Shown here one piece after another: positions 61,401-64,000 of a stretch of 64,000 bases of DNA (its first letter is position 1; every line of letters starts with the position of its first letter). The position numbers were made by a program. This stretch comes from Escherichia coli (GTDB lineage Bacteria > Pseudomonadota > Gammaproteobacteria > Enterobacterales > Enterobacteriaceae), in the NCBI RefSeq assembly GCF_050320075.1, contig NZ_CP190018.1; one strand, written 5' to 3'.

Positions 61401-64000
61401 CTCAATTGCCAATCTAACAGCGTCTTGACCACCTCTTAACTGTAATACTCTGGCAGATGAAATCCTTTTCAAGGAATTGTGATCATCAAGTAAGCGAAAT
61501 AATTCATCATCATTTAGTTTCTTACATTGATTATATAAACCATACTCTTTACTTGCCTTTCTTTTCTGGTATGTATTTGACATTGCAGGAACCTCCATAA
61601 AGACTATCTTTTTCTATCGTTTGACTGTCTGGAGTCCTCCACCTACTCTGCCATCAGCACACACGATGTTTGTTTATCCTTACATACTTATTTTCCGTGG
61701 CCAAAATTTAGAATTCTCCCGTCATTTTTGCCTATTTCTATAATAAAAACCCTACCAGCAATTTGGTCTGATTCAATGGTGCCTTCAACAATCCAACTTG
61801 TTGGTAATTCCATGATTTTGTATGGTTTTTCTTCTTCTGCGGCATCATGCCCATAACGATTTTTAACATACATCTCAGCTAATTCCAATGCTATAGCTTT
61901 ATTTTTTACCAAATTTCTAACGGTGTATTTCCCCTCACATTCATACTTGCGCATTATAATAATATTATTACACTGCGCCCATGTGTTGTATGTAAAAACA
62001 AAGATACAATCACATAGGTTCTGAATAATATTTTCTTATACGTTGTCATGTATTTTGCAAACATTAGACAATCCTTTTCCATTTATTATATCTTTCCCAT
62101 GATTATCTATTGCTTTAAAATTTTCACCTATTGACCTTGAATTACTACAATCACTTCCAGTGAAATCTGAGTTATTCAGAATAGCATTCATCAGAGCCGC
62201 ATTGTGAAAGACAGCATTTCTAGTTGATGTATGTTGAATCATTACATTTCTTAAATGAGTTTTTTCAAATTTCGCCCCATCAAGACAATAACCATTGAGG
62301 GTGGCACGATGTAGATTCATCCCGCTAAAATCATATCCAGCAAGAGTGGTACTATCTATCTCAAGAAATTTATTGGTTATTAAAAATGCGATTCTTATCA
62401 TCTGTTCCTCCAATCATCTAACTCCTGAAAAATTTGAAAACCAGAACCTCGCTTAGGCCTGTGTCCATACTACGTGGGTAGGATTATTCTGCGTACTACG
62501 CTGTTGTCCCTTACGTGCTGATAAGGGCTGGCAGGTTTCCGGCTTGCTTCGTTGAGTTCACTACGCTAAAGCTCCGTGTCCACATAACCCAGCTCGGAGG
62601 CATGACCTTCTCTGGTTCGTTCCATCTAAAATGTCTATAACTGACATGGTTATTCAATTATTTTTTCTTTGAGTTTATTCTCAATCCAGCGGTCTTTATA
62701 CCTGATGAGAATTTGACATTCACCAATATTATCAATGTCACCAACATTTGTGTTTCGAATTTGACCAACAGCAACTATAGTTGATTCAAAACATTCAACA
62801 TTGACTTTATCTGTTATTATTGAAACTATATAATCATCTGGAATGGAGCCATTAGGTATTATATTAAAGAAAGTAACATCGGTAAATACTAAATAACCAT
62901 TTTCTAAGTCTTCATTATTATAAAAATTCCATTCTGTTGTACCATAGGCTATCCTTGAGATTAAATTCACCTGAATTCTAATTTGTTTGCTCCATAAATC
63001 AAATTCAATTTTTTTATTGGTCGATCACCAAGATATATTCTATCAAACATATTACCCTCTATTCTAAAAATACTCAGGCATTCCACACATTATATCAGCC
63101 TCATCTTGACTGCTTCCCGTTTCCCGATACGGCGGTGCGGGGAGTCATAAAGGTAAGAAATTTCCAGCAGTACGGCGTCCTATTGTTCACGGCGGTAATG
63201 CACCAGCCAGTATTGGCTATCGTAGTGATAACCGTGTAATCTGCCGCCGCATCGCGTATCTAATGTTCATTCTTTTCCATAAACCGTCCGTACACATTGT
63301 GATAGTAAAAATACAATACATCTTCGCTGATGCGGTTATTCTGCTGCATGTGGGAAGCGCCGAATACTGCTCCCGGTATGGCCAGTAATTACTATTTAGT
63401 ACGACGTTAGGGGGAGTCACTTAATCTCACAGATACTTCAAGTAACAGATGAAAATCGCTCCTGAAATGAAAAAGAAATTTTTTTGAATGTGTTCCTGTC
63501 AAATCAAGTGGTTTTTTCGTCGATATGTAGAGTCATATTGTACACAAAATAGTTATGAAACACACCTTGGTAAAATATTTGAATCGTCTGAACAGTGGAT
63601 TATTTTGTGTATTACATCCAACGCTTGCCCATCTTTTTTCGCTATTAGTATTGTAAAATTTCCTCCTAACGTCTTCGGTTGTTTTCCCTCGATTTTCCAA
63701 CAATTATTGTCATCTGTAATACTATATGGTTTCTGAAATTCTGCTTTTTCTTTCCCGTATATATATTTAATATAAACATATGATAATTCCAAAGCCATTT
63801 CACGACTATTTACTAAAATTTCCACTGAATTTTCTTTTCCAAATACTGAGTGTGATATTGTAAACAATATCATAATAAGTAATATTAGTGAGTTTCTCAT
63901 GCTCTACACCTATCGAATCTCAAAAGTTGTGGGTAAAACATTACATTCAGAATATATGATATTCTTACCATCGGAATCCATTTTTCCAAATCGACCTTCT

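What the first reader, a model, noticed from the sequence alone, without database searches (positions are those of the whole stretch)
62414..62649. GC-richer noncoding block with repeated short motifs inside the AT-rich immunity array
Between the pentapeptide-repeat gene and the 106-aa gene is about 230 bp with no usable ORF on either strand. Its composition differs from its surroundings, and it carries recurring ACTACG and GTGTCCA(C/T)A motifs. It could be a degraded fragment of an rhs core (a recombination scar from orphan-module capture) or a small structured RNA. I cannot decide which.
Basis: seen in the sequence. Interest (0 to 1): 0.25.

Follow-up and report, generated by a model that had tools for sequence, protein, structure and literature searches.

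The report
Rhs-core and IS3 remnant scar
The GC-richer 236-bp gap is dead DNA, made of a gene's trailing flank, two decayed pieces of an Rhs core gene and the last 69 bases of insertion sequence IS3; it is an ordinary recombination and deletion scar in an E. coli rhs toxin/immunity array, not an RNA gene or a motif-bearing element.

Summary
Window 62414-62649 has no usable ORF and is 47.9% GC, against 29-33% in the flanks. The motifs are present but are chance.

The window is the E. coli rhsB locus, and its genes lie on the minus strand. Read on that strand, the block has four parts:
- 62649-62589: a 61-nt flank that follows the DUF6258 immunity gene in Escherichia, Citrobacter and Salmonella. 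It diverges at the rate of third codon positions.
- 62588-62535: a decayed Rhs core piece of Salmonella-like type.
- 62534-62485: a second Rhs core piece, 'LPALIST*GTTA*YAE', matching core '[18 protein letters not shown]'.
- 62486-62418: the last 69 nt of IS3 (right inverted repeat plus the transposase C-terminus), inserted into that core fragment.

Other strains carry the uninterrupted site, where the core fragment runs on into various orphan toxins.

ACTACG (3 copies) and GTGTCCAYA (2 copies) are not conserved in homologues, and shuffled sequence gives comparable repeats. I found no RNA signal: fold z-scores are +0.66 and -0.20, there is no Rfam match, and there is no consensus structure.

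The IS3 remnant was missed, and the RNA option is unsupported. This is a known kind of feature and of low interest.

The parts
62589..62649 (-). 61-nt 3' flank of the DUF6258 immunity gene (non-coding). It travels with that gene in E. coli, E. albertii, Citrobacter, S. enterica and S. bongori.
   Evidence: Alignments. E. coli versus Salmonella/Citrobacter identity is 71-74%, against 69-72% at third codon positions of the adjacent gene, so divergence looks neutral. In Salmonella, homology to the Rhs core begins exactly at nt 62 after the stop codon.
62535..62588 (-). Decayed Rhs core remnant A. 'VDTEL*RSELNEASRK' corresponds to Salmonella core 'LEAELQRGELSAANRA', with one in-frame stop.
   Evidence: Aligns to Salmonella main rhs (L015 nt 3001-3057), and 0 of 2000 shuffles reach the score. 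It shows no similarity to the equivalent E. coli core stretch. blastn gives 75% over 44 nt, E 0.01. Window nt 1-111 after the stop versus Salmonella L016 nt 1-118 gives E 3e-7. L016 nt 62-399 is 91% identical to the Salmonella main core, E 5e-133.
62485..62534 (-). Decayed Rhs core remnant B. 'LPALIST*GTTA*YAE' corresponds to core '[18 protein letters not shown]', with two in-frame stops and a one-codon deletion. Relative to the Salmonella arrangement, about 107 nt are missing between pieces A and B.
   Evidence: 85% over 41 nt to the window's own orphan rhs 60476-60516, E 6e-8; 84% to E. coli main rhs nt 3454-3497. Intact, uninterrupted versions occur in L004, L005, L009 and L007.
62418..62486 (+). 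Remnant of insertion sequence IS3: nt 1190-1258 of the 1258-bp element. It holds the last 12 codons of the transposase, 'L(T)PE(K)FENQNLA*', and the right inverted repeat. The tip abuts Rhs remnant B, and the 2 nt at 62485-62486 could belong to either part.
   Evidence: 62-75 nt at 91-95% identity to hundreds of annotated IS3 copies on E. coli/Shigella chromosomes and plasmids; alignment to the complete IS3 of ETEC H10407 (L002 807-2064), 63 of 69 matches by my count. Empty sites in L001, L004, L005, L007 and L009.
62402..62417 (-). Junction with the next module: 4 unassigned nt, then the GGAGG ribosome-binding site of the pentapeptide-repeat gene fragment. PGAP places its start codon at the ATG at 62401.
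   Evidence: Sequence reading and PGAP annotation of the identical strain 7/2. The pentapeptide fragment occurs only together with this scar.

Best explanation
The block is a non-functional composite scar in the array of displaced toxin/immunity modules downstream of rhsB in E. coli.

Proposed history:
1. A cassette made of a toxin C-terminal domain, the DUF6258 immunity gene and a 61-nt flank came to lie upstream of a displaced Rhs tip. The 5' core fragment of that tip is a Salmonella-like piece A. It joins, across a gap of about 107 nt (a deletion or an illegitimate junction), to E. coli-type core from 'LPLVLIS' onward. This is the arrangement expected from C-terminal displacement at rhs loci.
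2. IS3 inserted into that core fragment after the codons 'AEY'.
3. A later deletion removed about 1190 bp of IS3 together with the rest of the displaced tip. It joined the last 69 nt of IS3 to the ribosome-binding site of a pentapeptide-repeat gene fragment.
4. The remains then accumulated substitutions, including three in-frame stops.

The higher GC content reflects origin: Rhs core and IS3 DNA are GC-richer than the AT-rich toxin/immunity cassettes. The composition of the parts, the empty site and the shared junctions are shown directly. The order of events and the lack of function are inferred.
For: - Locus identity: the window is 100% identical to the E. coli strain 7/2 rhsB region between nikR and yhhJ. 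Nothing is annotated under the block.
- IS3 end.
- Rhs piece B.
- Rhs piece A and the 61-nt flank.
- Uninterrupted site: in EC571, OkiPb01680, 2014C-3061 and E. albertii the core fragment runs on. Where the downstream region is available (the three E. coli strains; the E. albertii contig ends about 211 nt after the gene) it leads into different orphan toxin/immunity pairs.
- Same outer and inner IS3 junctions at the rhsB locus (window, L003, L008) and at the rhsA locus (L006), so this was one event that later moved by recombination.
- Neutral divergence: spacer identity of 84-91% is at or below adjacent gene identity of 89-95%. Flank identity matches third-codon-position identity.
- No RNA signal.
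- Motifs at chance level and not conserved.
- The C-terminal displacement model and the arrays of dissociated tips carrying core fragments are described in Jackson et al. 2009 (PMC2935791).
Against: - Lack of function is inferred from sequence only; no expression data were available.
- Two sigma-70-like matches lie on the minus strand: 62684-62657, and 62510-62483 across the Rhs/IS3 junction. A by-product promoter for the downstream fragment genes therefore cannot be excluded.
- The scar is identical in about 230 complete genomes. That most likely reflects clonal descent, but I did not test it.
- Direct similarity of piece A to Rhs core is weak (75% over 44 nt) and rests partly on transitivity through the Salmonella orphan.
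- The ancestral partner of the pentapeptide fragment could not be found, so the far end of the deletion cannot be reconstructed.
Confidence: 0.9

Rival explanations
1. The block encodes a small structured RNA, either an sRNA or a 3'-UTR-derived RNA of the DUF6258 gene.
For: - The block is non-coding and GC-richer than its surroundings.
- The part proximal to the DUF6258 gene is present downstream of that gene in several genera.
- A promoter-like match at 62684-62657 on the minus strand would start transcription near the beginning of the block.
Against: - No Rfam match, even at E up to 10.
- MFE z-scores are +0.66 (minus strand) and -0.20 (plus strand) against dinucleotide shuffles.
- The consensus fold of nine homologues gives -2.5 and -7.9 kcal/mol, with 1 and 0 compensatory pairs.
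- No terminator-like site.
- Every segment is accounted for as module flank, Rhs core or IS3.
- Divergence is neutral-like.
Confidence: 0.03
2. The Rhs/IS3 junction, or the 61-nt flank, acts as an accidental promoter that drives the downstream orphan genes (pentapeptide fragment, NTF2-fold immunity gene, yibA).
For: - GGGACA-16 nt-AATAAT at 62510-62483 on the minus strand matches 9 of 12 consensus positions. It exists only in the IS3-bearing, mutated allele, because the -10 hexamer is formed at the junction.
- The downstream ORF has a good GGAGG ribosome-binding site.
Against: - Promoter-like matches are common here: 12 were found against 5.7 ± 2.8 in shuffles over 1.3 kb.
- In strain 7/2 PGAP annotates the pentapeptide gene as two incomplete pieces and the NTF2-fold gene after it as frameshifted; yibA is annotated intact.
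- In L008 the -35 hexamer is further degraded.
- No expression data were available.
Confidence: 0.06
3. The repeated ACTACG and GTGTCCAYA motifs are binding sites for a regulator, recombinase or transposase.
For: Three exact hexamers and two 9-mers lie within 236 nt. One GTGTCCATA copy lies in the IS3 right inverted repeat, which from general knowledge of IS3-family elements is the transposase-binding end.
Against: - Comparable repeats occur in 12% and 78% of shuffles, and in 36% of equal-sized windows of the same sequence.
- The copies lie in three segments of unrelated origin.
- Apart from the IS3 inverted-repeat sequence, the copies are absent from homologous copies.
- A single truncated IS end cannot transpose (general knowledge of IS3-family elements).
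Confidence: 0.01

Closest known systems
Dissociated (orphan) Rhs core fragments created by C-terminal displacement (Jackson et al. 2009, PMC2935791; orphan rhs-CT/rhsI modules, Poole et al. 2011, PMC3150448)
   Same: - It lies downstream of a main rhs gene, in an array of AT-rich toxin/immunity cassettes.
- It is a GC-richer piece of core sequence that starts abruptly after the preceding immunity gene.
- The same junction is found at rhsA, rhsB and rhsC loci.
- In other strains the fragment continues through the core end into different toxins.
   Different: - Here the fragment is only 104 nt and in two pieces, with an internal gap of about 107 nt and three in-frame stops.
- It has lost its toxin entirely through an IS3 insertion followed by a deletion. 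It is a remnant of an orphan, not an orphan module.
Insertion sequence IS3 (IS3 family, 1258 bp)
   Same: 63 of 69 nt match IS3 nt 1190-1258, which cover the end of orfB and the right terminal inverted repeat, including the terminal GGATCA-like tip (GGATTA here).
   Different: Only one end remains. There is no transposase, no left end and no detectable target duplication, so it is an immobile solo-end remnant.
H-rpt/ISEc1 (ISAs1-family) truncation of the same Rhs fragment at the rhsC locus of E. coli B/BL21
   Same: The same DUF6258 gene, flank and core fragment are cut short by a mobile element a few codons further on, after 'AEYDEWGNL'.
   Different: A different element (ISEc1, not IS3) is inserted at a different position, and the element is still largely present in BL21.

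Membership tests
Rhs core-derived sequence (dissociated core fragment) | Nucleotide or protein similarity to the conserved Rhs core just upstream of the PxxxxDPxGL boundary | tested here: met
   Piece B is 85% identical over 41 nt to the window's own orphan core (E 6e-8). Its translation is LPALIST*GTTA*YAE against [18 protein letters not shown]. Piece A aligns to Salmonella core nt 3001-3057, with 0 of 2000 shuffles reaching the score.
Rhs core-derived sequence (dissociated core fragment) | Location in an rhs locus downstream of a main rhs gene and a toxin/immunity cassette | tested here: met
   The identical region in strain 7/2 lies between the RHS element core protein gene and yhhJ.
Functional orphan rhs-CT/immunity module | Open reading frame running from the core fragment through the core end into a C-terminal toxin domain, followed by an immunity gene | tested here: not met
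   There are three in-frame stops. The fragment is truncated after 'AEY' by IS3, and no toxin domain follows. Intact versions exist in L005 and L009.
IS3 insertion sequence | Terminal inverted repeat and adjoining transposase 3' end of IS3 | tested here: met
   Alignment to the complete IS3 in ETEC H10407, plus hundreds of annotated IS3 matches.
IS3 insertion sequence | Complete element: both inverted repeats and the orfA/orfB transposase | tested here: not met
   Only the last 69 nt are present. The sequence beyond 62418 belongs to the pentapeptide gene fragment.
Structured non-coding RNA | Match to a known RNA family, or a stable conserved secondary structure with covariation | tested here: not met
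   Rfam search returned nothing credible. Fold z-scores are +0.66 and -0.20. Consensus folds give -2.5 and -7.9 kcal/mol, with at most one compensatory pair.
Structured non-coding RNA | Discrete transcript | not testable with these tools
   No expression data were available.

The most novel reading that the evidence does not exclude
The 61-nt flank that follows the DUF6258 immunity gene in Escherichia, Citrobacter and Salmonella, or the hybrid Rhs/IS3 junction next to it, could be functional. It might be a conserved boundary used when toxin/immunity cassettes are excised and captured, or an accidental promoter that keeps downstream orphan immunity genes expressed.
Probability: 0.05. Interest if true: 0.3.

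Novelty: already known. Interest (0 to 1): 0.06.

Why it matters
It matters little biologically. This is a textbook example of how rhs loci accumulate debris: displaced core fragments, IS insertions and deletions.

Its practical value is for annotation. The segment is unannotated in RefSeq genomes. It can now be labelled as an Rhs-core pseudogene fragment plus an IS3 solo-end remnant.

The shared junctions also give a [16 protein letters not shown]. They show that one array (DUF6258 gene, scar, pentapeptide fragment, NTF2-fold gene, yibA) has moved between the rhsA and rhsB loci.

Tried and rejected
- Rfam at a permissive threshold returned only noise: snoRNA, U6 and T-box hits at E above 1.
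- Single-sequence and alignment folding on both strands gave no signal.
- I considered that the spacer might hold a second IS3-like inverted repeat, because TGGACAC...TAGCG resembles the IS3 repeat. I rejected this. The spacer has no IS matches in a distant blastn search: it is found in 535 genomes, always on the chromosome, at one or two copies. The resemblance is lineage-specific, and the stretch aligns to Rhs core instead.
- I considered the 48-aa minus-strand ORF (62511-62657) as a small gene. I rejected it because the frame is interrupted in BL21 and, by my reading of the Salmonella sequences, there as well.
- The genome-contig scan with the DUF6258 protein returned only one locus, from E. 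albertii. I obtained wider context through the protein search and contig look-ups.
- The search for an intact relative of the pentapeptide fragment, meant to reconstruct the far deletion endpoint, found only the same E. coli fragment.
- No paper in the searchable library mentions DUF6258.

Full report
**Observation.** Window 62414-62649 is the 236-nt gap between two minus-strand ORFs: a pentapeptide-repeat ORF (62036-62413) and a 106-aa ORF (62650-62970).
- Pfam assigns the 106-aa ORF to DUF6258 and its neighbours to known immunity-type families: NTF2-fold immunity, HEAT and Sel1.
- The gap is 47.9% GC, against 33.1% and 28.7% for the flanking ORFs.
- The gap contains only short ORFs of 48 and 41 aa.
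- ACTACG occurs three times and GTGTCCA(C/T)A twice.
- These repeats are not above chance. 12% of dinucleotide-preserving shuffles have some hexamer at least 3 times, 78% have a 9-mer pair with at most one mismatch, and 36% of equal-sized windows across the 64 kb have a hexamer at least 3 times.

**Where the window comes from.** The block is 100% identical to many complete E. coli chromosomes. In strain 7/2 it lies between the main 'RHS element core protein' gene next to nikR and yhhJ, which is the rhsB locus. Nothing is annotated under it.

**The block is a composite.**
- A megablast search of 5426 complete E. coli genomes gave 3487 places in 1886 genomes, including 669 on plasmids. Only 270 genomes hold at least 80% of the block.
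- Query positions 10-71/84 match the end of annotated IS3 transposase genes at 91-95% identity.
- Query positions 72-236 match at about 84%, overlapping annotated 'RHS domain-containing' pseudogenes at other rhs loci.

**The IS3 part.**
- I aligned the window to the complete 1258-bp IS3 of ETEC H10407 (L002 807-2064).
- Window 62418-62486 is IS3 nt 1190-1258. That covers the last 12 transposase codons (LTPEKFENQNLA* here, LSPEQFENQNLA* in IS3) and the right inverted repeat. By my count 63 of 69 positions match.
- The IS3 sense strand is the window plus strand, so its outer tip abuts the Rhs-like DNA at 62485/62486.

**Rhs piece B.** On the minus strand, 62534-62485 reads LPALIST*GTTA*YAE.
- The window's own orphan rhs at 60034-60699 reads [18 protein letters not shown], and the BL21 pseudogene reads [24 protein letters not shown].
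- The DNA match to the window's own orphan core (60476-60516) is 85% over 41 nt, E 6e-8. The match to the E. coli main rhs is 84% over 44 nt.

**The empty site.** I aligned ten copies anchored on the DUF6258 stop codon.
- EC571, OkiPb01680, 2014C-3061 and E. albertii carry the uninterrupted sequence ...GCGCAGAATA|CGATGAGTGGGGCAAC..., which continues through the Rhs core. In the three E. coli strains it leads into different orphan toxin/immunity pairs. The E. albertii contig ends about 211 nt after the gene.
- BL21 and HKUOPY1 are cut a few codons later by ISEc1.
- The window, strain 7/2, O166:H15 JNE21-003 and 2020CK-00188 all carry the IS3 end at exactly the same position, with the same inner junction to the pentapeptide fragment. 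Strain 2020CK-00188 has a further 18-nt deletion inside the inverted repeat.
- Only the IS3-bearing alleles show the stop-creating substitutions. The window, strain 7/2 and JNE21-003 carry both GAA to TAA and TGG to TAG; 2020CK-00188 carries neither.
- The same scar sits at the rhsA locus in JNE21-003 and at the rhsB locus elsewhere. I infer a single insertion-plus-deletion event that was later moved by recombination between rhs loci.

**The remaining 115 nt (62535-62649).**
- Within E. coli this stretch occurs in 535 of 5426 genomes, only on chromosomes, at one or two copies. In every locus I examined it lies directly after a DUF6258 gene.
- A protein search and contig look-ups gave DUF6258 loci from Citrobacter, S. 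enterica and S. bongori.
- In Salmonella the first 61 nt after the stop codon are homologous to the E. coli sequence. From nt 62 onward the DNA is 85-91% identical over 338 nt to the Salmonella main rhs core (E down to 5e-133).
- The E. coli stretch from nt 62 to 115 after the stop (window 62588-62535) aligns with that Salmonella core segment, which encodes LEAELQRGELSAANRA. 0 of 2000 shuffles reach the score, and there is no similarity to the corresponding E. coli core segment.
- Relative to Salmonella, about 107 nt are missing between this piece A and piece B. That gap is either an internal deletion or the original illegitimate junction, and I cannot tell which.
- In total, 104 nt (62485-62588) are Rhs-derived, with three in-frame stops.

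**Is anything under selection?**
- Between E. coli variants the 115-nt stretch is 84-91% identical, while the adjacent gene is 89-95% identical.
- Between E. coli and Salmonella or Citrobacter the 61-nt flank is 71-74% identical, which matches third-codon-position identity of 69-72%.
- This is the pattern expected of neutral DNA that hitch-hikes with the cassette.

**RNA hypothesis.**
- Rfam gave no credible match.
- MFE z-scores are +0.66 on the minus strand and -0.20 on the plus strand.
- Consensus folds of nine homologues give -2.5 and -7.9 kcal/mol, with at most one compensatory pair.
- There is no terminator-like site, and promoter-like matches are only modestly above shuffle expectation.

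**Motifs.** Each motif copy sits in a segment of different origin (IS3 inverted repeat, Rhs piece B, Rhs piece A). Except for the canonical IS3 sequence GTGTCCATA, each is created by substitutions specific to this allele. The motifs are coincidental.

**Interpretation.**
- The block is debris of the kind predicted by the C-terminal displacement model for rhs loci. In that model incoming tips carry core sequence, and incumbents are shunted downstream as 'dissociated tips' (Jackson et al. 2009, PMC2935791).
- Here the debris was further damaged by an IS3 insertion and a deletion.
- The higher GC content is simply that of core and IS3 DNA set in AT-rich cassettes.
- The composition, the junctions and the empty sites are shown directly. 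The order of events and the lack of function are inferred.
- The main residual uncertainty is whether the junction happens to provide promoter activity, which I could not test.

**Verdict.** The feature is real but ordinary. This is a known kind of feature, and I score interest at about 0.06.

Noticed in passing
window 63064-63380 (minus strand): A second GC-richer scar lies just upstream of the DUF6258 gene. About 265 nt of frameshifted Rhs core (75% identical to Salmonella main rhs nt 2454-2720) are fused directly to the last 58 nt of the toxin gene that normally precedes DUF6258 (95-97% identity). The cognate toxin has therefore been deleted.
   Followed up: partly
window 62650-63086 (minus strand): The DUF6258 gene is frameshifted in an A-run near its 5' end. 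It reads MFDRIYLGDRPIKK... and then changes frame, whereas the intact gene is 133 aa in other E. coli, Citrobacter and Salmonella. BL21 has the same kind of defect. The '106-aa gene' is therefore probably a pseudogene or an N-terminally truncated product.
   Followed up: partly
window 61960-62413 (minus strand): The 'pentapeptide-repeat gene' is a chimera. Window 61960-62122, which includes the ORF tail 62036-62122, is 82% identical to the 3' end of K-12 rhsB plus the start of yhhH. PGAP annotates the ORF as two incomplete pieces and the following NTF2-fold gene as frameshifted. No intact relative of the pentapeptide part was found anywhere.
   Followed up: partly
window 59241-61598, and L006: This rhsB locus carries an array of the type I recall from the K-12 rhsA locus: a yibA HEAT-repeat gene, a yibJ-like orphan rhs and a yibG-like Sel1 gene. 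The identical DUF6258-scar-pentapeptide-NTF2-yibA array sits at the rhsA locus in O166:H15 strain JNE21-003. This implies exchange of whole arrays between rhs loci.
   Followed up: no
L013/L014 (Salmonella bongori), about 68-225 nt after the DUF6258 stop codon: An insertion of about 160 nt interrupts the flank and is bounded by a repeated CTCCTCCTATC(A/C)GG. It could be a small inserted element with a target duplication.
   Followed up: no
L010 (E. coli HKUOPY1), junction of the Rhs fragment with ISEc1: A tandem duplication of about 34 nt (CCAGGGAAAGATCATCAGAAGTTCACTTTTTGTA) lies at the ISEc1 junction and is absent from BL21.
   Followed up: no
PLSDB record CP088628.1 (10,245 bp 'plasmid'): This record holds the whole block at 99.2% identity. 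It is the only one of 689 matching plasmid records with full coverage, and it is probably a chromosomal fragment deposited as a plasmid.
   Followed up: no
window 58477-58911 (minus strand): A truncated ISAs1/H-repeat transposase fragment lies between the array and yhhJ. At the corresponding place, strain 7/2 additionally has an IS1 annotated.
   Followed up: no
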